The notes: generated from the sequence alone by a model not told the origin. A stretch of DNA of 64,000 bases from Chloroflexota bacterium (GCA_043812795.1 JBDRLU010000002.1:535-64534); one strand, 5' to 3'. Shown: positions 6,485-33,105, numbered from the stretch's first letter. Made by a program: numbers and translations.

Positions 6485-6646
6485 AATATACTCAAAACCA
6501 GTGGAGGTGCTAATTGTTAAAGCCAAAATCACCTCAAACCTCGTTCTATGGTAGTTACCTCTATGATAGAATCGTCCCAGCCGACCACCTGCTTCGTAAA
6601 ATCAATCAGGTAGTTGATTTCTCATTTGTGAGGGTGATTTGGCCTA
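6485..6646 (+). mobile_element. IS remnant (N-terminal stub of an IS5/IS1182-like transposase)
   Basis: 6514-6645 reads LLKPKSPQTSFYGSYLYDRIVPADHLLRKINQVVDFSF... This resembles transposase N-termini I recall. It is only about 40 codons, and a second copy lies at 8118-8247. Confidence 0.55.
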
Positions 6647-7612
6647 ATGACTTTTTCAGCAGTCTGGTATGGAGATTGCCGAAATAGTCAGGGTAATTTG
6701 GGCACGGATAAACTCTTTACCGGCCAGAGACTGGATGACACCGGACTCTATTACTACGGCGCCAGGTACTACGACCCAATTATCGGGAGATTTATCTCAC
6801 CGGATACGTTCGTACCTAGAGGAAATGGATTCGATGTCATTTCAGCCCCGCTAACTGTCAATTTCATCCCGCAGGGATTAGGAAATGAGCTAGCACCTAG
6901 AAAGAACTATCCTAAAATCTCTCTTCAGGTTTCTGCGAATCCGCAGGCATTTAACCGATATTCGTATGTATTGGATAATCCGCTTAGGTATACCGACCCT
7001 AATGGATGGGATACTTGGGGAAATGGAATCAACGTAAACGTTGGTTTTGGTATCGGTGTTTCTGGTGAAGTCTTAATCGTCACCGATGATAAAGGCAATA
7101 GGCGATTGGCGATAACTCTAAGTGGTTTGGGAACTACTCCTACTTTTAGTATCGGGGGTCAATTTCAAAAGACGGATGCTCCCACAGTCTTTGACTTAGG
7201 GAAATGGTCCGGCGGGTTCGGAGGTTCAAGCGGATTGATTCCTTCAATGTTGCTCCCTTCTGGGGGTGAGTACATCGGTTATAATGGTGGCAGTAAAGGG
7301 ATGGGATGGAAAGGTTATAATTTGAATATTGGGCCCGGGCGCACTTTCGTACCAATAGAAGTGCATGCTTTAGTAGGCTATACTTGGTTAGTTCCCGTAC
7401 CTTCGTGGATTGCCAACACACTAGGAAATAACAGTGCATCAGTTAGTAATGTTGGGACAGTGATAGGGTCAGGGTTTGGATTTATCTTCATTAGCGTCGG
7501 TGGAGGTGCTTCTGGTGACAACAATGGTGTTTCTGGTGACAACGGTGGTTCTTCGGAGGTGGTTGTAATTGATATATATGCTGGGTATGATTACAACCCC
7601 TTTGATTACTAG
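6647..7612 (+). CDS. orphan RHS C-terminal module: end of the RHS core plus an unrecognised Gly-rich C-terminal (toxin?) domain
   Basis: YGDCRNSQG..LFTGQRLDD..GLYYYGARYYDPIIGRFISPD..NRYSYVLDNPLRYTDPNGW is followed by about 200 aa of G/S/N-rich sequence. The ATG is created at the IS-remnant junction. Confidence 0.75.
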   Translation: MTFSAVWYGDCRNSQGNLGTDKLFTGQRLDDTGLYYYGARYYDPIIGRFISPDTFVPRGNGFDVISAPLTVNFIPQGLGNELAPRKNYPKISLQVSANPQAFNRYSYVLDNPLRYTDPNGWDTWGNGINVNVGFGIGVSGEVLIVTDDKGNRRLAITLSGLGTTPTFSIGGQFQKTDAPTVFDLGKWSGGFGGSSGLIPSMLLPSGGEYIGYNGGSKGMGWKGYNLNIGPGRTFVPIEVHALVGYTWLVPVPSWIANTLGNNSASVSNVGTVIGSGFGFIFISVGGGASGDNNGVSGDNGGSSEVVVIDIYAGYDYNPFDY

Positions 7613-7761: not shown

Positions 7762-8067
7762 ATGATTACCGAATTAATTATCAGCTTTATAATGGTTGTA
7801 TTAGGAACTATCTTGCTAATGTATTCTTCACGCCTTGGCAAGTGGATATTCAGTATTAGGGTAGAATTCGAAAAGGAATTCTCCTGGAATCGTGCAGCAA
7901 AACCTAAACAAGACAGGAGACGGTCTCGTCATTCATGGTTGTTATCTTCATCATACAGGGCTGCCCTTCAATACGGTCCTATTTTTGATATATGGGCGCT
8001 ACGCACCGTCGCTATAGGAGTTCTCCTATGGGCGATTATTTTTCTTTTTTTAGTTGTGTTTACTTAG
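7762..8067 (+). CDS. small membrane protein (candidate immunity protein)
   Basis: 101 aa with hydrophobic segments at both ends and a basic loop. It lies immediately downstream of the RHS tip. Confidence 0.45.
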   Translation: MITELIISFIMVVLGTILLMYSSRLGKWIFSIRVEFEKEFSWNRAAKPKQDRRRSRHSWLLSSSYRAALQYGPIFDIWALRTVAIGVLLWAIIFLFLVVFT

Positions 8068-8117
8068 ATTTTCCGAGATCAGTTTCTATACTCACTCGCA
8101 ATCACCGCCTTTTCCCG

Positions 8118-8247
8118 CTACAATATATCCAAAACCCCAGGAGGTAATGGATGTTACGTCCTAAACCGCCTCAGTCCTCCTTTTACGGTAGCTACCTGTA
8201 TGAACGCATAGTCCCAAAGCCCACTTAATTGTGAGAGAATTACTTCA
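8118..8247 (+). mobile_element. IS remnant, second copy
   Basis: 8151-8228 reads MLRPKPPQSSFYGSYLYERIVPKPT*. The 5' flank (CTACAATATATCCAAAACCCCAGGAGGTAAT) and 3' junction (AATGACTTTTTCAGC) parallel the copy at 6485-6646. Confidence 0.55.
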
Positions 8248-8346
8248 ATGACTTTTTCAGCGGTCTGTTATGGAGAGTTGAGGACTCGTTTGAGTGTGAC
8301 TGGCAGAAACAGGTGTTGTGAGAAGAGGGCGCCAGCCCTCTTATAA
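8248..8346 (+). pseudogene. third RHS core remnant
   Basis: It has the same junction as 6647 (MTFSAVCYGELRTR..), then runs into the repeat cluster and stops. Confidence 0.5.
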
Positions 8347-8527
8347 AAAATTGCCCCTTCCCCTCGCAGGGGTCTTGTTCCAAAAGTACTAAAATTCGTG
8401 TCATTCTGAGCGTAGCGAAGAATCCGTCTGCCCTGTTCCAAGAACGGATTCTTCGTCGCTTCACTCCTCAGAATGACTTTTGGAGCAAAGCTCCTCGCAG
8501 GGGAAGGGGTTAAGGGGATAGGGTCGT
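8321..8527. repeat. composite cluster of palindromic repeat modules
   Basis: Contains AGAAGAGGGCGCCAGCCCTCTT, CCCCTTCCCCTCGCAGGGG, GTCATTCTGAGCGTAGCGAAGAATCCGT...ACGGATTCTTCG..CTCAGAATGAC (8400-8477), and CTCGCAGGGGAAGGGGTTAAGGGGATAGGG. Confidence 0.75.
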
Positions 8528-8623
8528 GCGAAAAGAGGTATCCTTCAACCAGAGGTGAAATCGCCTATCCCATTCCCCCAGTTTTGTGCTATACTGGTAT
8601 CTACCGGTCGAATAGACCCGGCG

Positions 8624-8660
8624 GTTACCCACTCTGTTCGGAGAGTGGGTAACTTTTTGT
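8624..8660 (+). terminator. rho-independent terminator-like hairpin
   Basis: GTTACCCACTCT-GTTCGG-AGAGTGGGTAAC forms a perfect 12-bp stem, followed by TTTTT. Confidence 0.6.
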
Positions 8661-8755
8661 GCTTGAATAGCAGCGCTTTTCAGGGTAGGGCGCTTGCGCT
8701 ATGGGCGTCTTTTATTGTATGGTATTAATACGCTTAATATTTTGAGGGAGAAATT

Positions 8756-9079
8756 ATGACAACTGAACCAGTGGTAACGGCCGAGGAGAAGGGCCTCCGT
8801 GCTTATGAGCTTGTCCTCGTGATTAACCCCGAGCTGATGGGCGATAAACTGGATGCCACCGTCGGTAACGTCAGCCAGTTTATTACCGACCGCAAAGGCG
8901 TGATAACCGAGGTGCAGCGGTGGGGCAAGAAAAAAATGGCCTATCCCATCGGCGGCTTTACGGAAGCGAACTACATACTGACCCGGTTTAAGTCCAAACC
9001 GGCTTTGGGTAAAGAATTAGAAGCCAACCTGCGTATTGCGGATGATGTCCTGCGGCATCTGCTGGTGAAATTGGATTAA
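8756..9079 (+). CDS. rpsF: 30S ribosomal protein S6
   Basis: YELVLVINPEL..ITEVQRWGKKKMAYPI. rpsF-ssb-rpsR gene order. Confidence 0.95.
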   Translation: MTTEPVVTAEEKGLRAYELVLVINPELMGDKLDATVGNVSQFITDRKGVITEVQRWGKKKMAYPIGGFTEANYILTRFKSKPALGKELEANLRIADDVLRHLLVKLD

Positions 9080-9135
9080 GCGTGGTAAGTAGTCTATCGC
9101 CAGGGTGTTTGAGAGGAGTGGAAGGAGTTCAAGGA

Positions 9136-9549
9136 ATGGTAAGCGTAAATCGGATGATAATCATCGGGAACCTGGGGGGTGAGCCGGAGATGCGCTTCAC
9201 ACCCAATGGGAGGCCAGTAACCAGCTTCAATGTTGCCACGAACCGGCGTTATACCACCTCTGAGGGTGAGCGCCGGGAAGAGACCGAATGGTTTACGGTG
9301 GTCACCTGGGGGCGGCTGGCGGAACAGTGTAACCAGTTCTTGAACAAGGGGCGGCTGGTCTATGTGGAGGGACGGCTGCGGACGCATAGCTGGGAAGGCC
9401 AGGACGGACAAAGGCGTTCCCGTAATGAAGTCGTCGCCGATAGGGTGAGTTTCCTCGACCGCCAGGCGTCGGCACACTTGCCGGAAGAAAAGATAGAAGA
9501 AGTGGGTGCCGAAGAAGAAGTCAGGCCGGAAGATATTTCCTTCCAGTAA
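9136..9549 (+). CDS. ssb: single-stranded DNA-binding protein
   Basis: MVSVNRMIIIGNLGGEPEMRFTPNGRPVTSFNVATNRRY..; acidic C-terminal tail. ATG 9136 is chosen over the upstream GTG. Confidence 0.9.
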   Translation: MVSVNRMIIIGNLGGEPEMRFTPNGRPVTSFNVATNRRYTTSEGERREETEWFTVVTWGRLAEQCNQFLNKGRLVYVEGRLRTHSWEGQDGQRRSRNEVVADRVSFLDRQASAHLPEEKIEEVGAEEEVRPEDISFQ

Positions 9550-9585
9550 CGTTCGAGAAACCTTAATGAATAGGAGTTGAGATAA

Positions 9586-9885
9586 TTGACGAGACAGCAA
9601 CAATCCGATAAAGGCAGGCCACCGCGGGGTGGTCGTTCGCGGTACACGCCGACACGCCGCGTCTGTTCTTTTTGCGTCGGTAAGGTGAAGGCCATCGACT
9701 ACAAAGATGCCGAAAAATTACGCAACTATATCTCCGATAGGGGCAAAATAGACTCGCGCCGTCGCACCGGCACCTGTGCCCGGCATCAACGGATGCTGGC
9801 CCAGGCCATCAAGAGGGCGCGGCAGGTGGCCTTGCTGCCTTACGTCTCCGCCCACATGCGTGAGACGGGCTGGGGCATCGGATAG
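9586..9885 (+). CDS. rpsR: 30S ribosomal protein S18
   Basis: ..[61 protein letters not shown] start after AGGAG. Confidence 0.9.
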
Positions 9886-9948
9886 ACATTCGACCGGACT
9901 TGCGGTCGTAAGTTGCTTCTCTGAATACTATCCAAATGTGGAGTTAGC

Positions 9949-10086
9949 ATGCCAAAAAGGACTTATCAACCGAAGAAGATACCACGTCAGCGTGAACATG
10001 GTTTTCTCAAGAGAATGAGCAGCCGGGGTGGCCGCCTTGTCTTGAAAGCCAGGCGACTCAAAGGCCGCCAGCGGTTGACGATTTAA
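9949..10086 (+). CDS. rpmH: 50S ribosomal protein L34 (below the ORF-track size cutoff)
   Basis: Hand translation gives [45 protein letters not shown]. It lies upstream of rnpA as usual. Confidence 0.95.
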
Positions 10087-10115
10087 CGCTGAAGCACGTT
10101 CAGCCAGAGGGCGCC

Positions 10116-10508
10116 ATGAGGGGAGCACAGTACCTTACCAAACGGCAACAGTTTACCGCCGTTAATAGTCAGGGACGTCCCTGGCTATCCGGTCTGGTGG
10201 TGATGAAGGTCTTGCCCAACGGCCTGGCTATCTCCCGCTATGGCTTCTCGGTAAGCAAGCGGGTCGGTAATGCGGTCATGAGGAATAGAGTGAAACGTCT
10301 GATGCGTGAGATACTACGGAAAATGCCGTTGCAGCCGGGATGGGATATTGTCGTTATCGCCCGTCCGGCCGTCGCCGGTACCCGCTACAACGACTTGAGG
10401 AGTACTATAGAAGTCCTGCTATCTCGGGCCGGGTTACTGATCTCCGAGCCCGAAAGCGGTTTGACTGAGATTAAAACCGGGAGCGGCCGGCCGTTAGCCG
10501 CTTCTTGA
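10116..10508 (+). CDS. rnpA: ribonuclease P protein component
   Basis: Basic 130-aa protein (..[24 protein letters not shown]..) located between rpmH and yidD. Confidence 0.9.
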
Positions 10509-10516
10509 GAGTTGAA

Positions 10517-10726
10517 ATGAAAGCGTTAGCTTTAGCTTTAATCAAGCTCTACCAGATGACGATATCGCAGGTTACGCCGCCATCCTGTCGTTTTATCCCG
10601 ACCTGTTCCGAGTACACCTATGAGGCGATTAGCCGCCACGGCTTCTTCAAAGGGACCTGGTTAGGCGTGCGACGCCTCGCTCGCTGTCATCCTTTTCATC
10701 ACGGCGGGTATGACCCGGTGCCGTAG
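10517..10726 (+). CDS. yidD: membrane protein insertion efficiency factor YidD
   Basis: ..[49 protein letters not shown]. Confidence 0.9.
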
Positions 10727-10776
10727 AGTGCGGCTCTTTATTTTGTAAACAACTTCGATGCGGATAATGTAGTTAA

Positions 10777-11913
10777 GTGAAAATAAAACAAAGCGTAATC
10801 TGGCGAAAAAAATCGGGACTGGCGTTGGCCTTGTTACTGGTTGGCGTGCTTGTCCTGGCCGGCTGCATGGGTACCGGGACTATCCCCAAGGGGTGGTCGG
10901 GTGGGATAGTGACCGACGGCACTCTCTACATCGGCTCGATGGAGGGGCAGCTCGTTTCGATGAACATCACCGATGGCAGCCGTTTGTGGGCACAACCCTT
11001 GACCGCGGCTGAACCGGTAGCGACCGGTCTGGGCTGCGCCCCCGCCGCCGTGAGACCGGCCTCGGTTTACGGTCCGCCGGCGGTATTAGGTGACCTGGTC
11101 TATGTCGGTGGCTATGATGGCATCGTCTATGCGTTTAATACGTCTAACGGTGCGCAGCGCTGGCTCTATCCCCGCCGTGGCCGTGTCGGTTCGGTTGTTG
11201 GCGGAATCATCGTCGCCAATAATAAGCTCTATTTCGGCTCGGCGGATAGTAAAGTCTATATCCTGGATGCGGCTACCGGCGATAATATCTCAGAGTTCAA
11301 GACCGGCAGCCAGATATGGTCCACGCCGACCATCGACGGTAACACTTTATTCATCGGCTCCTTCGATAAGAAACTTTATGCTCTGGACGCGAACACCGGC
11401 AGCCGGAAATGGGAATACGCTACGGAAGGGGCTATTGCCGCCACGCCGCTCGTCCAGGACGGCATCGTCTATATCGGCTCTTTCGATAGATATTTGTACG
11501 CTCTGGATGCTAATAACGGCCAGTTGAAATGGAAATTCATGGCGGGTAACTGGCTCTGGGCAAAACCCGTTATTCATAACGGCGTTATCTATGCAGCCAG
11601 CCTCGATGGCAAGGTCTATGCCCTCGATGCTGCGAATGGGACTAAAATTACCGACGAATTCGACCTGGCCGAGCCGATAAGCTCTTCACCCGTCGTGGCG
11701 GGCGACTCGGTGATCGTGGCTACCCAAGGTGGAACAGTCTATGCCCTGAATGCCGGTACCGGTGAAAACCGGCGATTGGAGAAATTAACGGAAAAAGTGT
11801 ATGCTCCACTGGTCGGGTCGGGTAATAGCGTCTTTATCCACGGTAACAAAGATACCCTCTTTGTTCTGGATGTCCAGACCGGGGCGATACGGAAGTTAGA
11901 CCTTAAACTGTAA
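10777..11913 (+). CDS. PQQ-like beta-propeller repeat lipoprotein (BamB-like fold)
   Basis: Signal peptide with ..LVLAGC. Repeated 'G.LY.GS.DG.VYALDA.TG...W.' blades, about 8 copies. Confidence 0.8.
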   Translation: MKIKQSVIWRKKSGLALALLLVGVLVLAGCMGTGTIPKGWSGGIVTDGTLYIGSMEGQLVSMNITDGSRLWAQPLTAAEPVATGLGCAPAAVRPASVYGPPAVLGDLVYVGGYDGIVYAFNTSNGAQRWLYPRRGRVGSVVGGIIVANNKLYFGSADSKVYILDAATGDNISEFKTGSQIWSTPTIDGNTLFIGSFDKKLYALDANTGSRKWEYATEGAIAATPLVQDGIVYIGSFDRYLYALDANNGQLKWKFMAGNWLWAKPVIHNGVIYAASLDGKVYALDAANGTKITDEFDLAEPISSSPVVAGDSVIVATQGGTVYALNAGTGENRRLEKLTEKVYAPLVGSGNSVFIHGNKDTLFVLDVQTGAIRKLDLKL

Positions 11914-11927
11914 GTGAGGTAGATTTT

Positions 11928-12896
11928 TTGAGTATCGGGCAAATTTGGGACCTAATTATTCTGTCCCCGATGATAAATATCATCATCATGCTCTCCCATT
12001 ATCTCGGGGGTAGCTTTGGTCTAACTATTATCGTGCTCACTTTTCTCATCCGGGGTGCGATGTACCCGCTGACCCTGAAACAACTTCATGCGAGCAAAGG
12101 CCTGCAACAAATGCAGGCCCAGGTGGCCGAGCTCCGCAAGAAATACGCGAAAGACAGGCAAAAACTGGCTCAGGAAGAGATGAAGTTGTACAAGCAGACG
12201 GGCATGAACCCCGCCGGCTGCCTGCTGCCCATACTCATCCAGATGCCTATCTGGATTGCTCTTTACCAGTCCATTATGCGGGTTTTAGCCGTAGCTCCTG
12301 AGGACTTTCTCAGCTTATCCCAGCACCTTTATACTTCCTGGACGCAAGTCTTTTCGCTGGTGCCGCTGGAAAGTCATTTTCTCTGGCTCGACCTCTCCCT
12401 GCCTGACCGCTGGCTGTTCTTACCGCTTCTGGTAGGCGGCACGATGTGGGTGCAGCAAAAAATGACCATGGTCACCGCTCCCGACCCCAGGCAGCAGGCC
12501 CAGAGCCAGATGATGTTATGGATGATGCCGATGATGTTTACCCTGCTGACGTTGCAATTCCCGAGCGGCCTGGCTCTATACTGGGTAGTATCGAACGTGT
12601 TCAGTATTGTCCAGCAATATTTTGTGACCGGGTGGGGTGGTCTGAGTTCGTTAGCGGCAGTGAAGAAGGTTACTGGTGAGAAAAAAATTCAGGGGCCTCT
12701 GACTTCGTCGAGGACGCCCGCGGCACGGTTTAGTGCCGGTGGCAAAACTCGTGAGCCGGAGAAACCCCAGGAAGAGGGAACCAATGGAAAGTCTGGAGAT
12801 GAAGGGCAAGACCGTGGAGGAAGCTATCCAACGCGCCCTGGAACAATTAGGCGTCCGCCGGGAGGAGGTCGAGATAACCGTCGTAAAAGAAGGTAG
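11928..12896 (+). CDS. yidC: membrane protein insertase YidC
   Basis: ..YPLTLKQLHASKGLQQMQAQVAELRKKYAKDRQKLAQEEMKLYKQTGMNPAGCLLPILIQMPIW.. with a basic C-terminal tail. TTG start. Confidence 0.9.
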   Translation: MSIGQIWDLIILSPMINIIIMLSHYLGGSFGLTIIVLTFLIRGAMYPLTLKQLHASKGLQQMQAQVAELRKKYAKDRQKLAQEEMKLYKQTGMNPAGCLLPILIQMPIWIALYQSIMRVLAVAPEDFLSLSQHLYTSWTQVFSLVPLESHFLWLDLSLPDRWLFLPLLVGGTMWVQQKMTMVTAPDPRQQAQSQMMLWMMPMMFTLLTLQFPSGLALYWVVSNVFSIVQQYFVTGWGGLSSLAAVKKVTGEKKIQGPLTSSRTPAARFSAGGKTREPEKPQEEGTNGKSGDEGQDRGGSYPTRPGTIRRPPGGGRDNRRKRR

Positions 12897-25887: not shown

Positions 25888-27165
25888 ATGAGAAAGGCGA
25901 TATTACTCCTGCTGGTATCGGTGGTGTTATTCGGGTTATTAGGTTGCGGCCAGGCAGCCGCCGGCCAGGTGCTGCAATCGGATAAGCCGCGCGATACGTC
26001 GCCTGCGGTAGATGAAGCCGGCCTGGCAGCCCTGGTCGATGGTAATAACGCCTTTGCCTTCGATTTGTATCAGACATTAAGACAAGAGGGGGATAACCTG
26101 TTCTACTCGCCATATAGCATATCGGAAGCGCTGGCGATGACTTATGCCGGCGCTCGTGGTGAAACAGAGCAAGATATGGCTGCAGCTCTGGACTTTACAC
26201 TTTCACAGCCACGTTTACATCCTGCCTTCAATAGCCTCGACCTTCAACTCGGGCAGCGCGGTCAGGGAGCTAAGGGTAAGGATGGAGAAGGCTTCCGGCT
26301 GCATGTGGTCAATGCCATCTGGGGACAGAAGGACTATGAGTTCCTGCCGTCTTTTCTCGATGTTCTGGCCCAAAACTACGGGGCCGGGTTGAGGATATTA
26401 GACTTCATTAATGAAACGGAACAATCGCGGTTGACTATCAACCAGTGGGTGAGCGACCAGACGGAGCAGAGGATTAAAGACCTGATACCACCGGGGGTAA
26501 TTGACCGGCTGACGCGGCTCGTCCTGACCAACGCTATCTATTTCAATGCCGCCTGGCAGTACCCTTTTGAAAAGAATGCGACTTCTGATGGTGCATTCCA
26601 GCTTCTTAACGGCAGCGATGTCACGGTACCGATGATGAGACAGACCGAGTCGTTCCGCTATACGGCCGGTGACGGTTATCAGGCGGTGGAATTACCCTAT
26701 GACGGGCAGGAACTTTCGATGGTGATATTGCTGCCTGAAGCGGGACAATTCGAAACTTTTGAGGCGTCGCTGGACTGGGCTCTGGTTAAAGAGGCCATCG
26801 GTGACCTGAAGGCGAATGAAGTGGCGCTGACCATGCCTAAATTCGAGTACGAGTCCAGCGTCGGTTTGAAAGATGCTCTCAGCACGCTGGGCATGGGGGT
26901 GGCTTTCACTCCCGATGCTGACTTTTCCGGTATGGATGGCCGACGTGACCTGCTGATTCAGGACGTGATTCATAAGGCTTTCATCTCGTTGGACGAAGCC
27001 GGCACTGAGGCGGCCGCGGCGACGGCTGTGGTCGTGGGGGTGACCTCGGCACCGGCGGAGATAGTCGAACTCAAAATCGACCGGCCTTTCGTTTACTTCA
27101 TTCGTGACATACCTACCGGTAGCGTGATATTCGTCGGGCGCGTGCTGAATCCGGTGGGGAAATAG
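25888..27165 (+). CDS. serpin-family protease inhibitor with lipoprotein-type signal peptide
   Basis: ..LLLVSVVLFGLLGC.. Serpin body with an inhibitory-type hinge DEAGTEAAAATAVV and ..DRPFVYFIRD... Confidence 0.85.
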   Translation: MRKAILLLLVSVVLFGLLGCGQAAAGQVLQSDKPRDTSPAVDEAGLAALVDGNNAFAFDLYQTLRQEGDNLFYSPYSISEALAMTYAGARGETEQDMAAALDFTLSQPRLHPAFNSLDLQLGQRGQGAKGKDGEGFRLHVVNAIWGQKDYEFLPSFLDVLAQNYGAGLRILDFINETEQSRLTINQWVSDQTEQRIKDLIPPGVIDRLTRLVLTNAIYFNAAWQYPFEKNATSDGAFQLLNGSDVTVPMMRQTESFRYTAGDGYQAVELPYDGQELSMVILLPEAGQFETFEASLDWALVKEAIGDLKANEVALTMPKFEYESSVGLKDALSTLGMGVAFTPDADFSGMDGRRDLLIQDVIHKAFISLDEAGTEAAAATAVVVGVTSAPAEIVELKIDRPFVYFIRDIPTGSVIFVGRVLNPVGK

Positions 27166-27438: not shown

Positions 27439-29112
27439 TTACATCTTGTCCGGGGCGGTCATGCCCATGAGGCGCAGGGTACGTGCCAGGACGATTTTAG
27501 CGGCCTCCACCAGCTTGAGGCGGGCCCTGGTTATGGTTTCATCGTCGGAGACGACCCGGCAGTCCTTGTAGAAGCTGTGGAAGGCGGTTGCCATGTCCTG
27601 GGCATAGTAAGTCAGGTGGTGAGGTTCCAGCGCCACGGCCACCCGTTCCACGAGTTCCGGCAGGAGGACGAGCTTGCGGATGAGGGCCAGTTCCGGCTCG
27701 CTGGCCAGCAAAGAAATATCTCCGTCGGCATAATTAATTTTTCTCTCTTTGGCCAGGCGGAGAATGCTGGCGATGCGGGCGTGGGCGTACTGGACGTAAT
27801 AGACCGGGTTATCGGCCGATTGTTTCTTGGCCAGTTCGAGGTCGAAGTCCATCTGGCTGTCCGCCGAGCGGGAGAGGAAGAAGAAACGGCAGGCATCGGT
27901 GCCGACTTCTTCGGCCACCTCGCGTAACGTGATAATATCACCGCTGCGCTTGGAGACACGGACGAGTTCTTCACCGCGCTTCAGCGTCACCATCTGTGAA
28001 ATAAGTATCTTGAGCCGCTCCGGGTTGATGCCGAGAGCACCGACCACGGCTTTCATACGGGGCACATGGCCCTGGTGGTCGGCACCCCAGATATCGATGA
28101 CCTTGTCGAATTTGCGTTCGACGAATTTATTGTAGTGATAGGCGATATCGGCGCCGAAGTAGGTCGGCGTGCCGTCGCCGCGGATGACGACGTTGTCTTT
28201 ATCTTCGCCGAGGGCGGTCGAGACAAACCAGGTGGCATCTTCTTTTTCGGAGATAAAACCGCTCTGGCGCAGGAGCGACATTACCGTCTGAAATTCTCCT
28301 TTTTCATATAGAGTCTTCTCGCTGAACCAGACATCAAAGGTCACACCGAGGAGAGCGAGGTCGTTTTTAATTTGTTCCAGCATTTTGCTGACGCCAAGCT
28401 GGCCGATTTGAGCGATGGCTTCCGCCTCGGGCATCTCCAGGAAGGTCTTACCTTTTTCGGCGATAATTTCTTGGGCCAGGTCGATGAGGTAGGGACCGAC
28501 GTAGCCTTCTGCCGGCATTTCGGCCTCGACGCCTGAGCTCTGCTTATAACGGGCATAGAGCGACTGGTAGAAGGCGTTCATCTGGCCGCCGGCGTCGTTG
28601 ATGTAATATTCCTTTTCGACTTTATTGCCGGCAGCGGCGAGCACGCTGGCCAGAGCGCTGCCGAGGATAGCCCCCCGCCCGTGCCCCACATGGAGGGGGC
28701 CGGTGGGATTGACGCTAACAAATTCAATCTGGATGCGGCAGCCTTTGCCGAGGTCGATATTGCCGTAGTTCTCACCCGCCTGCAGGATAAAACCAACCTG
28801 GTCGGTGAGCCAGCCTGTTTTGAGAGTGAAATTGATGAAGCCGGGCGGCGCCGCCACCACGCTTTCGATTTCCGGCGAGGGGGTAATCAGTTCCACCAGG
28901 TCCTGGGCGATGGTCATCGGTTTGGTGCCGGTGGCACGGGCCAGTTTCAATGGAAAGCTGGAGGCATAATCGCCGTGGTCGGCGTTTTGCGGGCGTTCGA
29001 TAAAAGCCTCCGGCAAAGCTACCGCCGGCAGCTTGCCCGCCTGCTGGGCTTTCTGGGCGGCTTCCATCAACTGTGCCGCCAGCCTCTGTTTCAATTCTAA
29101 TACGTCGCTCAT
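27439..29112 (-). CDS. argS: arginine--tRNA ligase
   Basis: 557 aa. ..[14 protein letters not shown].. (HIGH) and C-terminal DALR anticodon-binding region ending ..[14 protein letters not shown]. Confidence 0.95.
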
Positions 29113-29128
29113 TTTGTCTTCACAATTC

Positions 29129-29237
29129 TAAGAGGTTGTTTAGTGATGTCATTCTGAAGGAGGACGCTGAAGGCGGACGACTGAACGAATCCGTACTTCC
29201 ACGTAGGGAACGGATTCTTCGCTTTGCTCAGAATGAC
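29129..29237. repeat. palindromic repeat modules in the argS 5' leader
   Basis: AGAGGTTGTTTAG (also at 1214-1228), then GTCATTCTGAAGG...ACGGATTCTTCGCTTTGCTCAGAATGAC. Confidence 0.7.
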
Positions 29238-29353
29238 AATTGATATGCTACACCCTCTATTCTAAAGTAGTTGACTCACGAATTATAGCATATTCAGGAG
29301 AGGAAAATACTGTTCATCATTTCTTCGTACCCTGTTCCCCAAAGTGTGCTATT

Positions 29354-30394
29354 TCACTTGACTAGGCAACTAAACTCATTATATCGGTCACGCAGCCGTT
29401 TTGAGAGTTTGCGGGAGTCTAAGTAAACGGGATCAGCGATTAATAGCGACACACGAATAACACCTACGTCTGCGTACTGTTTATTTAAGACTGATTGCAC
29501 GTACTCCTGTCGTGGTTCTTTGTGCATATTTACTGGAATGAGTGGAGGATACTTTTGCTCATATGCTTTAAAAGCGTTTGAGCTTTTCTGTAAGGCGCTG
29601 TGTAGTTGACTCATGCGTTCGTATCCAACTGCCCGTAATTCTTCTATAAGCTCTGAAATGCTTCTAGGCTCGGAATGAGTTCTATCGGGGTATGTTTTCT
29701 GAAGGTAAGCAGACAAAGTGTCAAGATTGATTTCCTCAGATTCAATATCTTTTAGCCGTTCTGCTTTTCCTACAGCTGCTTCTCGTGCTTCCTGACTGGA
29801 ACGGAAGAACAATTCAAAGTGGCTGTCTGCAAGGTAAAATAGTGCGCTAAGTGCGTTGAAGTCTTTTCTCAGAGAAGATGGAATGGCGTTTGGTGACTTG
29901 TAATCGAGGTAGTGGGATACCGTTGCCCATGCATGCATAGCAATTGTTCTTACTTGGATTTCAAACTTTAGCCTCTTCAGGTCATCGTATCGCGGGCCGC
30001 TACAACTTTCTGGTAGAGTGCAGACATAATGAACTGAGAAATAGCCAAATGCATCTTCAGGCTTCGCGCTAATTTTATCATCCTTAGTTTGGACGCTAAA
30101 ATTCGATTCGATGAGTTCGTCTATACGCCGAAGGTCAGACAGGAATAGACATATTACGCGAACACCGCATATGTCGAGAATGGTGTCGAAGGGTGATTCG
30201 CTTTCTTGGCGGGATATCTTCTCAATAAAAGACTCGAAAGGTTTAATTCGGGAGCTGATATCATGTAAAGGGATGTGTTGCTCTTGTAGGCATCGTTCCA
30301 GAATAAAGGTGGCCTCGCCTTTAAGTCGCTCATACCGTGGTCTCCTTTGCTCATATTCTTTATGCAAAACTGTCACGTTTATATTCATAACCAC
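29354..30394 (-). CDS. RelA/SpoT-domain nucleotide pyrophosphokinase (SAS/toxSAS-like) with an uncharacterised C-terminal domain
   Basis: Motifs SRIKPFESFIEKI, DICGVRVICLF, FGYFSVHYV and FEIQVRTIAMHAWATVSHYLDYK fall in residues about 45-165. Total length is 346 aa. G+C is markedly lower than the flanks. Strong SD GGGAGGTGG. Confidence 0.85.
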   Translation of the reverse strand: MVMNINVTVLHKEYEQRRPRYERLKGEATFILERCLQEQHIPLHDISSRIKPFESFIEKISRQESESPFDTILDICGVRVICLFLSDLRRIDELIESNFSVQTKDDKISAKPEDAFGYFSVHYVCTLPESCSGPRYDDLKRLKFEIQVRTIAMHAWATVSHYLDYKSPNAIPSSLRKDFNALSALFYLADSHFELFFRSSQEAREAAVGKAERLKDIESEEINLDTLSAYLQKTYPDRTHSEPRSISELIEELRAVGYERMSQLHSALQKSSNAFKAYEQKYPPLIPVNMHKEPRQEYVQSVLNKQYADVGVIRVSLLIADPVYLDSRKLSKRLRDRYNEFSCLVK

Positions 30395-30438
30395 CTCCCT
30401 CCTTTCTTCTTAGGTGAACAGTATGCCCAGCCTATATT

Positions 30439-32898
30439 TTAGCTCCACTCGGCCGCTTCCGGCCAGACGCGGGCCAGTTCTTTAATAAGGAGAGCATGTT
30501 CCGGTTTTTTCAGATTGGGGTCTTCCTCGAAGAGACGGGTGGCCTCGTTGCGGGCAAGCTCTAAGATAGCGACGTCGCTAAGTTTGGCCATGCGTAAATC
30601 GGGCAGGCCGCTCTGGCGGGTGCCGAAAAATTCCCCGGGGCCACGCAGCCGTAAATCTTCCTCGGCTAATTTGAAGCCGTCGTGGACTTTTTCGATGATA
30701 TCGAGACGCTCCCGTCCGATTTCAGAGGGGTGCTCGGCCAGCAACATACAGTAGCTTTGCTCCGGCCCCCGCCCCACCCGGCCGCGGAACTGGTGCAACT
30801 GGGACAGGCCGAAGCGGTCGGCACTTTCCACCATCATGACGGTAGCATTGGGAATATCGATGCCGACCTCGATGACAGGCGTGGCTACCAGAATGTGCAT
30901 CTCGCCGGCACGGAACTGCCGCATCACGTCGTCTTTCTCCACGGCGGACATCCGTCCGTGTATTAAGCCGAGCCGCAGGTCGGGGAAAACTTCCCGGGAT
31001 AATCGTTCGTATTCGGCGATGGCAGCGCGGGCCTGGATGGCCTCGGACTCCTCGACCAGCGGACAGAGGATAAAAGCCTGCCGACCTTCGGCAATCTGGC
31101 GGCGGATGAAAGCATAGGCACTTTCCCGCTGCTCCGGCCTGAGCCACCTGGTCTTTATTATCTGCCTCCCCGGCGGAAGCTGGTCGAGGACAGACAGGTC
31201 GAGGTCGCCGTACAGCGTCAGCGCCAGGGTACGGGGGATGGGGGTGGCCGTCATTACCAGGACGTGCGGGTTAAAACCCTTCTGTCGCAGGGCAGAACGC
31301 TGTGTCACGCCGAAACGGTGCTGCTCGTCCACCACAGCCAGACCCAGCTTCGGAAATTCGACATCCTCTTGAATAAGGGCGTGGGTGCCGATTAATAAAT
31401 CGATTTTGCCGTCCAGCAGGCACTGCTGCAGTATCTGTTTTCGGGATTGTTTAATATCGCCGGTGAGGAGGGCGACGGTCAAGGGGCGGGGTAAAATCCC
31501 GGAATAGCTGCGGAGGCAGTCCTCTTCTTGCTCTAGCCGGCCGGCTCTCTCGAGTAGCTGGCTGATGGTAGCAAAATGCTGCTCGGCGAGAATTTCAGTC
31601 GGGGCCATGAAAGCCCCCTGGTAGCCGTTGGCGGCGGCCATCAGCAGTCCGGCGGTGGCGACCACCGTCTTACCGCTGCCGACATCGCCCTGCAGCAAGC
31701 GGGACATTGCCCGCGGTCTCTTCAAGTCGGACATCAGCTCGTTCAGCACTTTTTGCTGTGCCGGAGTTAAGGAGAAGGGCAGGGAGTGGATAAATTTGTC
31801 GAAGATGGCGGGGTGAAGGGTAAGGGGGTGGCCCGGCTGGCCCTCCTGCCAGCTCCGTTTTTTGCTCATTACGCCCAGTTGCAGGATAAAAAGCTCATCG
31901 AAAGCGAGGCGGATTCTTGCCCGCTGGCGTATCTCATCGTTTTCGGGAAAATGTGCCTGGCTGATAGCCTGCGGCAAGTCAAGTAACTTCTGTCTGTCTT
32001 TCAAGGCGGGCGGGAGAAAATCGCTCAACTGTCCGGCCCAACCGTCGACGGCCTCTTTCATTAGTTTTCTGACCTGGCGGGGGTAGAGCCCCTGGGTGAG
32101 GGGATATAACGGTACCAGCCGTCCGGCATGGACCAGTTCCTGGTCTTCAAAGAATTCCCATTCCGGCGACTCGAAGACGTAGCGCCCTTTGAAAACCCCG
32201 ACTCGCCCGCTGAGGATTATCCGGCTATTGGTGGTCAGTCTTTTGACTAAATACGGGTTATTAAACCAGACGACGCGGACGTTCCCGGTCTCATCACCGA
32301 CGGTGGCCTCGGTGCTGCGGCGGCGACCGCCCAGCCGGATTTCGTGTGCCTCCCATACATTAGCCACGATGGTCTCTTCCTTGCCTTCGGTAAGCTGCGA
32401 GATAGTCTTCCGCTGGCTGTAGTCGAGGTGGCGGTTGGGGAAGAAATAGAGCATATCCCGAATTGTCCGTACGCCCAGTTTATTGAATTTCCCGGCCAGG
32501 CTGGTGCTGATGCCTTTAACAGCAGTAATCGGGGAGTTAATCGACTGGGTCGGTGTTATCTTTTTAACCGGCCGTTTGAGGGTAGATGAACGTGGGATAG
32601 GTCGGGAACCGGTTGTCTTTTCTTTGCTTTCATCGCCTCGTTCCGCCTCGGTCAGGAAAGTGAGCACGCTCTCTATCCAGTCGCGGCGTTGCTCTCTGGT
32701 CAATCCCGCATAGTTGGACTGGGCTAAGCCCAGCTTCTTGAAGCGCGCGAGCAAACGCGGCCGGGTGATGCTTCCGGCGGCGCCCGCCGCCCAGTTGTGG
32801 AGAAATCTGTCCAGGCCACCCATAACGGCGGCATCGGTATAGTCCTTTTTGCCTTCTAGCTCGAGGATTTTGCGTAGCGCTTCGGTATTTAACGGCAA
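30439..32898 (-). CDS. recG: ATP-dependent DNA helicase RecG
   Basis: 819 aa with a wedge/OB domain, then helicase motifs ..LQGDVGSGKT.., ..VVDEQHRFG.., ..MTATPIPRT.., ..QLHQFRGRVGRG... Confidence 0.95.
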   Translation of the reverse strand: MPLNTEALRKILELEGKKDYTDAAVMGGLDRFLHNWAAGAAGSITRPRLLARFKKLGLAQSNYAGLTREQRRDWIESVLTFLTEAERGDESKEKTTGSRPIPRSSTLKRPVKKITPTQSINSPITAVKGISTSLAGKFNKLGVRTIRDMLYFFPNRHLDYSQRKTISQLTEGKEETIVANVWEAHEIRLGGRRRSTEATVGDETGNVRVVWFNNPYLVKRLTTNSRIILSGRVGVFKGRYVFESPEWEFFEDQELVHAGRLVPLYPLTQGLYPRQVRKLMKEAVDGWAGQLSDFLPPALKDRQKLLDLPQAISQAHFPENDEIRQRARIRLAFDELFILQLGVMSKKRSWQEGQPGHPLTLHPAIFDKFIHSLPFSLTPAQQKVLNELMSDLKRPRAMSRLLQGDVGSGKTVVATAGLLMAAANGYQGAFMAPTEILAEQHFATISQLLERAGRLEQEEDCLRSYSGILPRPLTVALLTGDIKQSRKQILQQCLLDGKIDLLIGTHALIQEDVEFPKLGLAVVDEQHRFGVTQRSALRQKGFNPHVLVMTATPIPRTLALTLYGDLDLSVLDQLPPGRQIIKTRWLRPEQRESAYAFIRRQIAEGRQAFILCPLVEESEAIQARAAIAEYERLSREVFPDLRLGLIHGRMSAVEKDDVMRQFRAGEMHILVATPVIEVGIDIPNATVMMVESADRFGLSQLHQFRGRVGRGPEQSYCMLLAEHPSEIGRERLDIIEKVHDGFKLAEEDLRLRGPGEFFGTRQSGLPDLRMAKLSDVAILELARNEATRLFEEDPNLKKPEHALLIKELARVWPEAAEWS

Positions 32899-32943: not shown

Positions 32944-33092
32944 CCGCTCGTGGTGAGCTTGTCGAACCACGAGTTATCCCTTCGACAGGCTCAGGGTGAC
33001 CGGGCTATATTAAGACTTGAGCGAGCGAAGTCGGATATTTTTGTCGCCGTTCCCTGGTGGTGAATACGGATTCTTCGCTACACTCAGAATGA
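32944..33092. repeat. palindromic repeat modules (bipartite element in reverse orientation plus half of a GTCATTCTGAG-type hairpin)
   Basis: CCGCTCGTGGTGAGCTTGTCGAACCACGAG..CCCTTCGACAGGCTCAGGGTGACCGG (32944-33004) and ACGGATTCTTCGCTACACTCAGAATGAC (33066-33092). Confidence 0.75.
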
Positions 33093-33105
33093 CAGTTTGC
33101 TGTCT

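What the first reader, a model, noticed from the sequence alone, without database searches (positions are those of the whole stretch)
29250..30440. Low-GC single-gene island: a RelA/SpoT (toxSAS-like) synthetase domain fused to an unknown ~140-aa C-terminal domain, wedged between recG and argS
ORF 29354-30394(-) carries the full nucleotide-pyrophosphokinase motif set in its first ~170-200 aa (SRIKPFESFIEKI; DICGVRVICLF; FGYFSVHYV; FEIQVRTIAMHAWATVSHYLDYK). It is roughly 120-140 aa longer than housekeeping small alarmone synthetases. I see no HD hydrolase, TGS or ACT region.

My hand counts of two 60-nt samples inside it give 43% and 37% G+C. A sample from the body of recG (31201-31260) gives 68%, so lateral acquisition is likely.

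No partner gene fits. Only 44 nt separate its start from the recG stop. It has a strong SD (GGGAGGTGG) and no obvious promoter of its own, so it is probably co-transcribed with recG. Downstream there is only repeat DNA and the argS leader.

Stand-alone, laterally moving SAS-like proteins are the architecture of toxic SAS effectors. A toxin domain fused to a C-terminal autoinhibitory or sensor domain is how CapRel-type anti-phage systems are built. I do not recognise the C-terminal domain here, so it could be a new sensor or antitoxin module.
Basis: partly seen in the sequence, partly recalled or inferred. Interest (0 to 1): 0.75.

Follow-up and report, generated by a model that had tools for sequence, protein, structure and literature searches.

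The report
Alarmone synthetase with a new, swappable C-terminal module
This is an intact accessory gene for a RelQ-like (p)ppGpp-type synthetase fused to a conserved, previously undescribed helical domain that elsewhere sits on TIR, cyclase and membrane proteins, so it is probably a signal-gated growth-arrest enzyme, possibly for phage defence; it is not a CapRel relative.

Summary
An intact ORF (29354-30388, minus strand, 344 aa from the ATG) lies between recG and argS in a low-GC trough. It carries a complete RelA/SpoT synthetase domain and about 135 extra C-terminal residues.

The catalytic half is closest to housekeeping RelQ/RelP and to GRel/Pag1B. It is far from CapRel.

The C-terminal region is a confidently folded all-helical domain. 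It has no match in Pfam, in PDB sequences or by Foldseek. It is unrelated to the C-terminal domains of CapRel and of Pag1B.

The synthetase-plus-domain architecture is a large family (582 clusters at 50% identity). The same C-terminal domain is occasionally fused to PycTIR-type TIR domains, PycC-like cyclases and membrane proteins, so it is a swappable input module.

No partner gene is conserved across 38 lineages. None of 80 Dehalococcoidia relatives has the gene, and their recG-argS gap is a variable hotspot that holds HicAB and other cargo.

Two cautions apply. The PADLOC PDC-S33 hit is non-specific, because B. subtilis RelQ scores higher. Low GC is a trait of the whole family, seen even where the gene is inherited vertically.

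Best reading: a signal-gated alarmone synthetase, possibly for defence. No experiment has tested it.

The parts
29354..30388 (-). Coding sequence of the two-domain RelA/SpoT-family protein: 344 aa from the ATG at 30388, stop codon at 29354-29356. The GTG at 30394 gives 346 aa but is less likely.
   Evidence: (P0001, 100% identity, 344 aa)
29879..30388 (-). Residues 1-170: RelQ-like synthetase (SYNTH) domain. The catalytic set is complete: R47, K49, D72, R77, G-loop Y116, H120, E143, Q145, R147. All are invariant in the family.
   Evidence: Pfam PF04607; PDB phmmer to RelQ/RelP, E 1e-19 to 1e-16; Foldseek TM (target) 0.75-0.81 to 2be3, 6ewz, 5dec; invariant columns
29762..29878 (-). Residues 171-209: one long alpha-helix linking the two domains. 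Its first part aligns with the C-terminal helix of RelQ.
   Evidence: AlphaFold2 model, helix 171-209; RelQ alignment reaches residue 204
29357..29761 (-). Residues 210-344: uncharacterised all-alpha C-terminal domain of about 8 helices. Motifs: EINLDT..AYL, FPDR.H (R236), L.EEL..GY, AF..YE (E277), DVGV.R.SL.I (R312). Residues about 281-300 form a low-confidence loop that is longer here than in relatives.
   Evidence: pLDDT 89 and pTM 0.80 when predicted alone; no Pfam, PDB or Foldseek match; 582 representative clusters; fusions to TIR, cyclase and TM proteins
30394..30402 (-). Shine-Dalgarno sequence GGAGGGAGG, 5 nt upstream of the ATG
   Evidence: sequence
29113..30438 (.). The inserted low-GC segment between the argS start and the recG stop (1326 bp). 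It occupies a slot that is 1-3585 bp long and variable in relatives.
29147..29238 (.). Palindromic intergenic repeat: 11-nt perfect arms TGTCATTCTGA / TCAGAATGACA around an inner GAATCCGT...ACGGATTC stem. It is a generic REP/MITE-like element of this lineage, not tied to the gene. It could act as a hairpin between the gene and argS.
30439..32898 (-). recG, the upstream flank on the same strand. Probable co-transcription.
27439..29112 (-). argS, the downstream flank on the same strand. A promoter-like site ATGACA-16-TAGAAT lies at 29152-29125.

Best explanation
The gene encodes a single-polypeptide, signal-gated small alarmone synthetase.

Shown:
- The N-terminal 170 residues are a RelQ-type pyrophosphokinase with every catalytic residue intact.
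- A long helix connects this domain to a folded 135-aa helical domain. That domain defines a large family and is also attached to other output domains (PycTIR-type TIR, PycC-like class III cyclase, membrane proteins).
- The gene is solitary and accessory, and it sits in a variable hotspot.

Inferred:
- The C-terminal domain is an input (sensor or regulatory) module. It binds a cue through a site of its own (R236, E277, R312) and, through the linker helix and probably a change of oligomeric state, switches the synthetase on.
- The enzyme then transfers pyrophosphate from ATP to GTP/GDP (possibly ATP/ADP). This makes (p)ppGpp-type alarmones and drains NTP pools, so growth stops.
- The most likely biological setting is abortive-infection-type phage defence or another emergency dormancy response.

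The cue is unknown.
For: Catalytic domain:
- PF04607, 82 bits.
- Nearest solved relatives are the (p)ppGpp-making RelQ/RelP.
- 30% identity, and hhalign probability 99.5%, to the GRel/Pag1B-like family. That family is reported to make pppGpp (preprint 10.64898/2026.04.06.716658).
- Catalytic residues are invariant in 36 sequences.
- The N-terminal domain is not basic (pI 6.1), unlike what is described for tRNA-binding toxSAS.

C-terminal domain:
- Conserved full length across phyla at 45-68% identity.
- Confident fold.
- 582 clusters in an exhaustive profile search.
- The same domain (30-43% identity, same motifs) is fused to TIR PF10137 (P0224, P0254, P0431), to cyclase PF00211 (P0255, P0203), to TM or unknown N-termini (P0158, P0265, P0187), and in tandem to TPR repeats (P0152).
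- The TIR and cyclase partners match PycTIR/PDC-S35 and PycC models.
- R236 and E277 are invariant across all these architectures.

Accessory status:
- Absent from 80 of 80 related argS loci. The recG-argS gap is a hotspot with HicAB, DUF6602 and unknown cargo.
- Homologs with both domains occur as a reverse-oriented lone gene in an M. abscessus prophage, and on a B. mycoides plasmid among DUF4435, DUF3800, a KAP NTPase and a recombinase.
- One homolog lies next to ParE/Phd, and another 1.5 kb from a PANGU-like NA37+SAS pair.
- No conserved partner in 55 loci of 38 lineages.
- Cultured Dehalococcoidetes were reported to carry only the long Rel (PMC3153485).
Against: - There is no experimental datum for any member of the family.
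- The only hit to a defence database is non-specific. RelQ scores 90.6 bits on PDC-S33 against 71 bits for this protein, and the C-terminal domain gives no hit.
- About half of the chromosomal contexts are plain housekeeping genes.
- Synteny is conserved within clades: DAO-SAS-PriA, with co-divergence of the SAS gene and PriA, and MscS-SAS-DinB. This suggests long vertical residence, which is unusual for defence genes.
- Only 2 IMG/VR contigs carry the family.
- Non-SAS fusions of the C-terminal domain are rare: about 8 of the 148 best representatives, and 3 of the 120 closest TIR proteins.
- Substrate and product are inferred from similarity only.
- Domain contacts in the AlphaFold model could not be inspected.
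Confidence: 0.55

Rival explanations
1. Physiological, non-immune second-messenger enzyme. The family is a regulated housekeeping-type SAS whose C-terminal domain senses a metabolite or stress cue. It adds (p)ppGpp to the cell's normal stringent control. The TIR, cyclase and SAS fusions would then reflect a general signalling input domain coupled to nucleotide-messenger outputs.
For: - The catalytic domain is closest to RelQ/RelP.
- Many contexts are housekeeping genes, and synteny is conserved over 54-61% protein identity in step with PriA.
- A long Rel lies 4 kb away in two lineages.
- The family is rare on phages.
- Cyclases and SAS are both messenger synthases.
Against: - Absent from all 80 closest relatives at this locus. 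It sits in a slot used by toxin-antitoxin cargo.
- Patchy distribution across phyla, including an archaeal hit, P0050.
- Carried on a prophage and on plasmid islands.
- The TIR partner is of the CAP12/PycTIR NADase-effector type.
- It falls far below the NCBIfam RelQ equivalog cutoff, 78 against 320.
- GC3 is persistently foreign.
Confidence: 0.28
2. CapRel-type fused toxin-antitoxin. The C-terminal domain would fold back on the active site as a cis-antitoxin and be pulled off by direct binding of a phage structural protein. The enzyme would then pyrophosphorylate tRNA CCA ends.
For: - Same overall plan, a synthetase plus a C-terminal domain in one protein of similar size.
- The catalytic fold resembles CapRel (Foldseek E 4e-8).
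- The gene is solitary.
- The G-loop tyrosine is conserved.
Against: - The global superposition on CapRel is poor: rmsd about 20 A, TM 0.41.
- The C-terminal domain alone has no Foldseek match to 7ZTB or 9ERV, or to anything else, at E below 1.
- Sequence similarity to CapRel is marginal, E 1e-3 within the catalytic core only.
- The N-terminal domain is acidic to neutral (pI 6.1, family median about 6.1), not the basic surface described for tRNA binders.
- Polar residues of the C-terminal domain are conserved across TIR, cyclase and TM fusions. This argues for a site of its own, not an interface fitted to the SAS active site.
Confidence: 0.1
3. Orphan PANGU-like effector. Like Pag1B/GRel, it would be an inert tetramer that is activated when a nucleoid-associated protein, encoded elsewhere in the genome, binds its C-terminal domain after phage-induced DNA damage.
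For: - Same three-part layout as Pag1B, and 30% identity in the catalytic half.
- One family member lies 1.5 kb from an NA37+SAS pair.
- Replication and repair genes recur next to the gene.
Against: - No homology between the two C-terminal domains (hhalign probability 0.8%, with the N-terminal domains as a 99.5% positive control).
- The C-terminal domain is not acidic: net +1 here, family range -14 to +10.
- No NA37 gene in the 64-kb window.
- No recurrent neighbour in 38 lineages.
Confidence: 0.05
4. The C-terminal domain is a homotypic adaptor (an effector-associated domain). It would recruit the synthetase to a separate sensor protein that carries the same domain, such as the tandem-domain TPR protein P0152.
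For: The domain sits on diverse effectors and, in tandem, on a TPR protein with no enzymatic part.
Against: No second ORF with the domain lies in the 64-kb window or in any of about 80 family loci. The TPR fusion is a single representative.
Confidence: 0.05

Closest known systems
RelQ / RelP (SAS1/SAS2, YjbM/YwaC) small alarmone synthetases of Firmicutes
   Same: The catalytic fold and all catalytic motifs, 25-29% identity, Foldseek TM (target) 0.75-0.81. The alignment runs through the helix after the core, to residue 204.
   Different: This protein has about 135 extra C-terminal residues that form a separate domain. It is far below the NCBIfam equivalog cutoff (78 against 320 bits). It is accessory and compositionally foreign rather than a core gene.
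GRel / Pag1B, the toxSAS effector of type I PANGU (bioRxiv 10.64898/2026.04.06.716658)
   Same: The same three-part plan (synthetase, helical linker, C-terminal domain of about 120 aa) and the same size (about 330 aa). 30% identity, and hhalign 99.5%, over the synthetase and linker. Probably also an alarmone maker that is off by default.
   Different: The C-terminal domains are unrelated (hhalign 0.8%). This one is not acidic. There is no adjacent NAP gene.
CapRel (for example CapRel SJ46, PDB 7ZTB), a fused toxSAS-antitoxin phage sensor
   Same: A single-protein system with a catalytic domain plus a C-terminal regulatory domain, similar length, and occurrence on prophages.
   Different: The catalytic domain is only marginally similar in sequence (E 1e-3). 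The C-terminal fold is unrelated. There is no basic tRNA-binding character. The product is probably a nucleotide alarmone, not modified tRNA.
Bicistronic toxSAS toxin-antitoxin modules (FaRel, FaRel2, PhRel, PhRel2; PMC7229694)
   Same: A RelA/SpoT synthetase used as a growth-arresting effector on mobile DNA.
   Different: There is no conserved neighbouring antitoxin gene in 38 lineages. Solved toxSAS other than CapRel gave no match at E up to 1 in the PDB sequence search. Phrann gp29 did not appear among the phage hits.
Pycsar/CBASS effectors and cyclases (PycTIR / CAP12 TIR, PycC)
   Same: The C-terminal domain of this gene is found fused to these domain types in other proteins.
   Different: Those fusions lack the cyclic-nucleotide-binding domains of true Pycsar effectors. 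Here the output is a SAS domain, and no cyclase gene is nearby.

Membership tests
RelA/SpoT homolog (RSH) superfamily, synthetase domain | Pfam PF04607 above the gathering score | tested here: met
   82.1 bits against a cutoff of 27, residues 48-168
RelA/SpoT homolog (RSH) superfamily, synthetase domain | Catalytic residues present: the R-x-K ATP site, D of DxxGxR, the G-loop tyrosine, E-x-Q-x-R-T | tested here: met
   R47, K49, D72, R77, Y116, H120, E143, Q145 and R147 are invariant in 36 sequences and align with RelQ motifs
Long RSH (Rel/RelA/SpoT) | HD, TGS and ACT domains; TIGR00691 above its cutoff | tested here: not met
   Only PF04607 is found. TIGR00691 scores 33.5 bits against a cutoff of 499.
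Housekeeping RelQ/YjbM | NCBIfam NF053588 equivalog cutoff; single-domain protein of about 210 aa | tested here: not met
   78.3 bits against a cutoff of 320. The protein has 344 aa and a second domain.
Housekeeping SAS (any) | Conserved presence and synteny in close relatives | tested here: not met
   None of 80 Dehalococcoidia argS loci carries it. In the 35 loci with recG-argS adjacency, none has it. Synteny is, however, conserved inside two other clades.
CapRel | C-terminal antitoxin/sensor domain of the CapRel fold | tested here: not met
   Foldseek with the C-terminal domain alone gives a best E of 1.0, and CapRel is not among the matches. The full-length superposition has rmsd about 20 A.
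CapRel | Basic tRNA-binding surface on the catalytic domain; tRNA CCA pyrophosphorylation | tested here: inconclusive
   The N-terminal domain has pI 6.1 and net charge -3. This is a bulk proxy only. The surface was not inspected and activity cannot be tested here.
CapRel | Activation by direct binding of a phage protein | not testable with these tools
   Needs phage challenge and escape mutants.
PANGU type I (Pag1A + Pag1B/GRel) | Adjacent nucleoid-associated protein gene | tested here: not met
   tblastn with an NA37 protein finds nothing in the window. No recurrent neighbour in 38 lineages.
PANGU type I (Pag1A + Pag1B/GRel) | Homologous, acidic DNA-mimic (DMK) C-terminal domain | tested here: not met
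   hhalign probability 0.8% for the C-terminal domains against 99.5% for the N-terminal domains. Net charge is +1 here and the family median is -2. The comparison used the C. aestuarii Pag1B-like family, not the published proteins themselves.
Bicistronic toxSAS toxin-antitoxin modules | Conserved adjacent antitoxin gene | tested here: not met
   Flanking-ORF clustering of 55 loci gives at most 4 of 38 lineages for any cluster, and that cluster is PriA/RecG. A small HD_4 gene follows the homolog in C. aestuarii only.
Bicistronic toxSAS toxin-antitoxin modules | Toxicity of the synthetase | not testable with these tools
   Needs expression assays.
PADLOC candidate PDC-S33 | Specific match to the PDC-S33 profile over its full length | tested here: not met
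   71 bits over profile positions 54-283 of 349. The match is driven by the N-terminal domain alone (66 bits), and the C-terminal domain gives no hit. A B. subtilis RelQ fragment scores 90.6 bits on the same model.

The most novel reading that the evidence does not exclude
The 135-aa C-terminal domain is a new, widespread sensor module of single-protein immune or emergency systems. It recognises one class of cue, such as a phage component, a damage signal or a small molecule, and can switch on whichever output it is fused to: alarmone synthetase, TIR NADase, nucleotide cyclase or membrane effector. The SAS fusion, with hundreds of clusters in many bacterial phyla and at least one archaeal hit, would then be a new major class of alarmone-based abortive-infection proteins, mechanistically distinct from both CapRel and PANGU.
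Probability: 0.35. Interest if true: 0.75.

Novelty: new variant of a known kind. Interest (0 to 1): 0.55.

Why it matters
Alarmone synthetases used as weapons (toxSAS) are known in three control formats: separate antitoxins, the cis-antitoxin of CapRel, and the NAP activator of PANGU. This family would add a fourth. It is a RelQ-like enzyme governed by a C-terminal module that has no known fold relative and is shared with TIR, cyclase and membrane outputs.

That gives a concrete and widespread target, with more than 500 sequence clusters, for finding a new infection or stress cue. It also bears on why many bacteria carry extra SAS genes. And it supplies a defined domain, with candidate key residues R236, E277 and R312, that is missing from Pfam.

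If the family instead proves to be a physiological regulator, it would still be a new input domain for (p)ppGpp signalling in phyla where only the long Rel is known.

Tried and rejected
- PADLOC as evidence for defence. Rejected after a control: RelQ hits PDC-S33 better than this protein does.
- Homology of the C-terminal domain to the Pag1B DMK-type domain. None by BLASTP or hhalign.
- An acidic DNA-mimic character. Not present.
- A NAP gene in the window. None.
- Fold matches for the C-terminal domain in the PDB and BFVD. None below E = 1.
- Pfam, PDB and PHROG profile searches with the C-terminal domain. Only sub-threshold noise.
- A conserved partner or antitoxin. None. The 132-aa upstream ORF in L001-L004, the 72-aa ORF in L097 and the HD_4 gene in L009 are each specific to one lineage.
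- A second gene nearby with the same C-terminal domain. None.
- The palindromic repeat as an island boundary or a mobile-element end. Rejected. It is a generic intergenic element with other copies in the window and in relatives' unrelated intergenic regions.
- A T-box or other leader for argS. No Rfam match.
- Phage-borne origin. Only 2 IMG/VR loci and 2 prophage records carry the family.
- Literature searches for PDC-S33 or for this family. No description found. The Atkinson-lab subfamily name could not be assigned from the texts held.
- Contexts of the TIR fusions. The contigs are too short to be informative.

Full report
**1. The observation**

It runs from 29354 to 30394 on the minus strand and gives 346 aa from a GTG. 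The better start is the ATG at 30388, giving 344 aa:
- The Shine-Dalgarno sequence GGAGGGAGG (30394-30402) lies 5 nt upstream of that ATG.
- The public model of the same contig (P0001, a Chloroflexota MAG) starts there.
- Homologs align from that methionine.

Pfam finds RelA_SpoT at residues 48-168 (82 bits against a cutoff of 27) and nothing else. The GC trough is real. The gene has GC 0.433 and GC3 0.407, against 0.58 and 0.70-0.72 for recG and argS. The gene lies 44 nt (GTG) or 50 nt (ATG) after the recG stop. No sigma-70-like promoter lies between them, so read-through from recG is plausible. Promoters of this phylum are poorly covered by that scan.

Downstream there is a palindromic repeat at 29147-29238. 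It has two further copies in the window and copies in relatives' intergenic DNA. It is a generic REP/MITE-like element. No Rfam family, and so no T-box leader, lies before argS.

**2. The catalytic half**

By sequence, the nearest solved proteins are RelQ/YjbM and RelP/YwaC (E 1e-19 to 1e-16, residues 36-204). CapRel matches only at E 1e-3, inside the catalytic core.

An AlphaFold2 model built from 36 family members is confident (mean pLDDT 89.5, pTM 0.76). Foldseek puts residues 1 to about 200 on RelQ/RelP with TM (target) 0.75-0.81. CapRel aligns only with rmsd about 20 A overall.

All residues expected for pyrophosphate transfer are invariant in the family: R47, K49, D72, R77, the G-loop Y116, H120, E143, Q145 and R147. 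The protein falls far below NCBI's equivalog cutoff for RelQ (78 against 320 bits) and for long RSH.

The N-terminal domain is not basic (pI 6.1). A basic pocket is what the literature describes for tRNA-modifying toxSAS and notes as absent from the alarmone-making Pag1B. From these similarities I infer that the product is a free alarmone, most likely (p)ppGpp. This inference has not been tested.

**3. The C-terminal half**

Residues 171-209 form one long helix. Residues 210-344 form a compact bundle of about eight helices. Predicted alone, the bundle reaches pLDDT 89 and pTM 0.80. Only residues about 281-300 are uncertain, a loop that is longer in this protein than in relatives.

The domain has its own conserved motifs: EINLDT..AYL, FPDR.H, L.EEL..GY, AF..YE and DVGV.R.SL.I.

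It has no significant match to any of the following:
- Pfam models
- PDB sequences
- PDB structures (best Foldseek E 1.0)
- predicted viral structures
- PHROGs or PADLOC models

It is therefore neither disordered nor a known domain, and it is not the C-terminal domain of CapRel.

**4. The family and the modularity of the domain**

A word-indexed search found 593 homologs. The best 120 are nearly all 320-349 aa long, cover most or all of the query, and are 45-68% identical. They come from Clostridium, Sedimentisphaerales, Verrucomicrobiota and an archaeal Methanoperedens bin, among others.

An exhaustive profile search with the C-terminal domain alone found 582 representative clusters. I sorted the 148 best by architecture:

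| Architecture | Count |
|---|---|
| Full synthetase plus the domain | 63 |
| Truncated synthetase plus the domain | 33 |
| The domain with fewer than 110 aa before it (mostly fragments that begin in the linker helix) | 47 |
| A different N-terminal region plus the domain | 5 |

The proteins with other partners are these:
- P0224 and P0254 carry a CAP12/Pycsar-type TIR domain (PF10137, E about 1e-25).
- P0255, and the partial P0203, carry a class III nucleotide cyclase (PF00211).
- P0158, P0265 and P0187 have transmembrane or unknown N-termini.
- P0152 has two tandem copies of the domain followed by TPR repeats.

An alignment shows 30-43% identity to the window's domain in the TIR, cyclase and membrane fusions (22% in the tandem-domain TPR protein P0152). 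The same motifs are kept, and R236 and E277 are invariant. The TIR and cyclase partners hit the PADLOC models PDC-S35/PycTIR and PycC.

A third TIR fusion (P0431) turned up among the 120 closest TIR proteins. The other 117 carry other partner regions, so the TIR fusion is real but rare.

The swap also runs the other way. A Vibrio filamentous prophage carries the same synthetase chassis with a different C-terminal region. Several phage and PADLOC profiles of 330-365 positions match only the synthetase plus linker.

The picture is a synthetase-and-linker chassis with interchangeable C-terminal modules, and a C-terminal module with interchangeable outputs. That is the behaviour of an input (sensor or regulatory) domain. 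Its polar invariant residues are the same whatever the output domain. This argues that it has a binding site of its own, not a surface fitted to the synthetase active site.

**5. Genomic setting**

I used ArgS as a probe and fetched 80 loci from Dehalococcoidia and related MAGs, with ArgS identity of 66-79%. None contains the gene. In 35 of them recG lies directly upstream of argS, as in the window. The gap there ranges from 1 to 3585 bp. Its varied, mostly lower-GC cargo includes:
- a HicA/HicB pair
- a HicB-like gene with an unknown partner
- a DUF6602 protein
- several unknown ORFs

So this junction is an insertion hotspot, and the gene is an acquisition in this lineage.

Family members with both domains also occur on mobile DNA:
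- In Mycobacterium abscessus prophages, as a lone gene in reverse orientation between phage genes.
- On a Bacillus mycoides megaplasmid, among DUF4435, DUF3800, a KAP-type NTPase and a recombinase.
- On a Streptomyces plasmid, near an integrase.

Other chromosomal contexts are mixed:
- Next to a ParE/Phd pair.
- 1.5 kb from an NA37 plus SAS pair that looks like a type I PANGU system, with a small HD_4 gene in between.
- Otherwise among ordinary metabolic or replication genes.

Clustering of all flanking ORFs from 55 loci (38 lineages at 75% identity) found no neighbour shared by more than four lineages. That top cluster is the helicases PriA and RecG. No second ORF with the C-terminal domain lies near any member. 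The gene is therefore solitary.

**6. Two corrections to easy inferences**

First, the PADLOC hit that a pipeline would report (PDC-S33, E 2.7e-20) is not evidence for defence. A fragment of B. subtilis RelQ scores higher on the same model (90.6 bits). The window hit comes from the N-terminal domain alone, and the C-terminal domain gives nothing.

Second, low GC is not simply a mark of recent transfer. The gene is lower in GC than its flanks in 35 of 38 loci, with a median of -7.6 points. This holds even in the DAO-SAS-PriA clade. There the gene (54-61% identity) has diverged in step with the adjacent priA (54-64%), which indicates vertical descent. Why AT-richness persists is unexplained.

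**7. Comparison with known systems**

The closest functional analogue is Pag1B/GRel of the PANGU system, described in a 2026 preprint. Pag1B has a synthetase, a helical linker and a C-terminal domain. It is inert as a tetramer. It makes pppGpp when a nucleoid-associated protein binds the C-terminal domain. Its isolated catalytic domain is inactive.

The window protein shares 30% identity with a Pag1B-like protein over the synthetase and linker. The two C-terminal domains are unrelated (hhalign 0.8%, against 99.5% for the N-terminal domains). The window's domain is not acidic. No NAP gene is present.

CapRel shares only the general plan. Bicistronic toxSAS modules need an antitoxin gene, and none is present here.

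The census of RSH proteins lists cultured Dehalococcoidetes as having only the long Rel. This fits the gene being an extra in this lineage. I could not assign the family to one of the named SAS subfamilies from the texts available. I found no paper that describes it.

**8. Verdict**

Shown:
- An intact accessory gene encodes a catalytically complete RelQ-like synthetase fused to a new, conserved, modular helical domain.
- The gene is solitary.
- It was inserted into a hotspot.

Inferred:
- The C-terminal domain gates the enzyme in response to an unknown cue.
- The output is an alarmone burst that stops growth.

Whether the setting is phage defence (my leading reading) or ordinary stress signalling is open. 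Domain partners, mobile carriers and the hotspot favour defence. The RelQ-like core, clade-level synteny, plain neighbourhoods and rarity on phages favour physiology.

I rate the finding as a new variant of a known kind and of moderate interest. The most valuable element is the C-terminal domain itself.

Noticed in passing
window 8399-8478, 29147-29238 and about 33010-33094: Three copies of a palindromic intergenic element of about 85 nt (TGTCATTCTGAGCGAAGCGAAGAATCCGT ... ACGGATTCTTCGC ... CTCAGAATGACA). The core 11-mer occurs 5 times against 0.77 expected. Copies also lie in intergenic DNA of a few related MAGs (L077, L080, L081, L091, L092, L094).
   Followed up: partly
L015-L094 (recG-argS junction of Dehalococcoidia relatives), e.g. 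L038 6536-6990, L018 5863-6706, L059 1043-1852: The recG-argS gap is a variable hotspot (1-3585 bp in 35 genomes). It holds HicA/HicB, a HicB-like gene with an unknown 166-aa partner, DUF6602, an ABC-transporter insert (L023) and unknown ORFs of 166-336 aa. A 94-96-aa gene starting MLSQIP(I/L)NL.KV recurs there in at least six relatives but is absent from the window.
   Followed up: partly
L009 (Clostridium aestuarii JAPQER010000002.1) 8001-12564: Within 4.6 kb this locus holds a family member (P0044), a 140-aa weak HD_4 gene (possibly a small alarmone hydrolase), a 205-aa unknown gene, and an NA37 plus RelA_SpoT pair that looks like a type I PANGU system. It is a small cluster of alarmone-related accessory genes.
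   Followed up: partly
38 family loci (L001-L166) and window 29357-30388: The gene is lower in GC than its flanks in 35 of 38 hosts (median -7.6 points). This includes a clade where it co-diverges with the neighbouring priA. AT-richness seems to be maintained rather than a fading sign of transfer. Unexplained.
   Followed up: partly
window 30439-32898 (recG); L012, L123, L129, L145, L147 (priA 71-235 nt downstream); L001, L014, L107-L109 (dinB convergent, 24-91 nt); L097 (dnaE 1.4 kb); L098 (recG 5.4 kb): Replication-restart and repair genes lie within 6 kb of the gene in 7 of 39 lineages. The four gene families were chosen after they had been seen, so the statistic is weak. It might hint at a link to replication stress or DNA damage.
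   Followed up: partly
L170 (Vibrio phage 10N.261.45.F7_PE002A, PQ189320.1) 6571-7581: An 8.1-kb filamentous (Tubulavirales) prophage carries a 336-aa SAS-like cargo gene. It has the same synthetase chassis but an unrelated C-terminal region.
   Followed up: partly
L128, L143, L146, L157, L165: In several metagenome contigs the family gene is split over two reading frames. These may be frameshifts, pseudogenes or assembly errors.
   Followed up: no
window 25888-27165 (+): A 425-aa ORF with an N-terminal lipoprotein-like signal looks, by eye from its translation, like a serpin-type protease inhibitor. It lies just beyond argS. No family search was run on it.
   Followed up: no
P0050: One of the closest homologs (67% identity, partial) comes from a Candidatus Methanoperedens (archaeal) bin. 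This suggests transfer between domains of life, or a binning artefact.
   Followed up: no
L102 3456-7918: The cyclase fusion of the C-terminal domain (P0255) lies next to DUF2513, an HTH plus Peptidase_M78 (ImmA/IrrE-type) gene and a DDE transposase. The setting looks like a mobile element.
   Followed up: no
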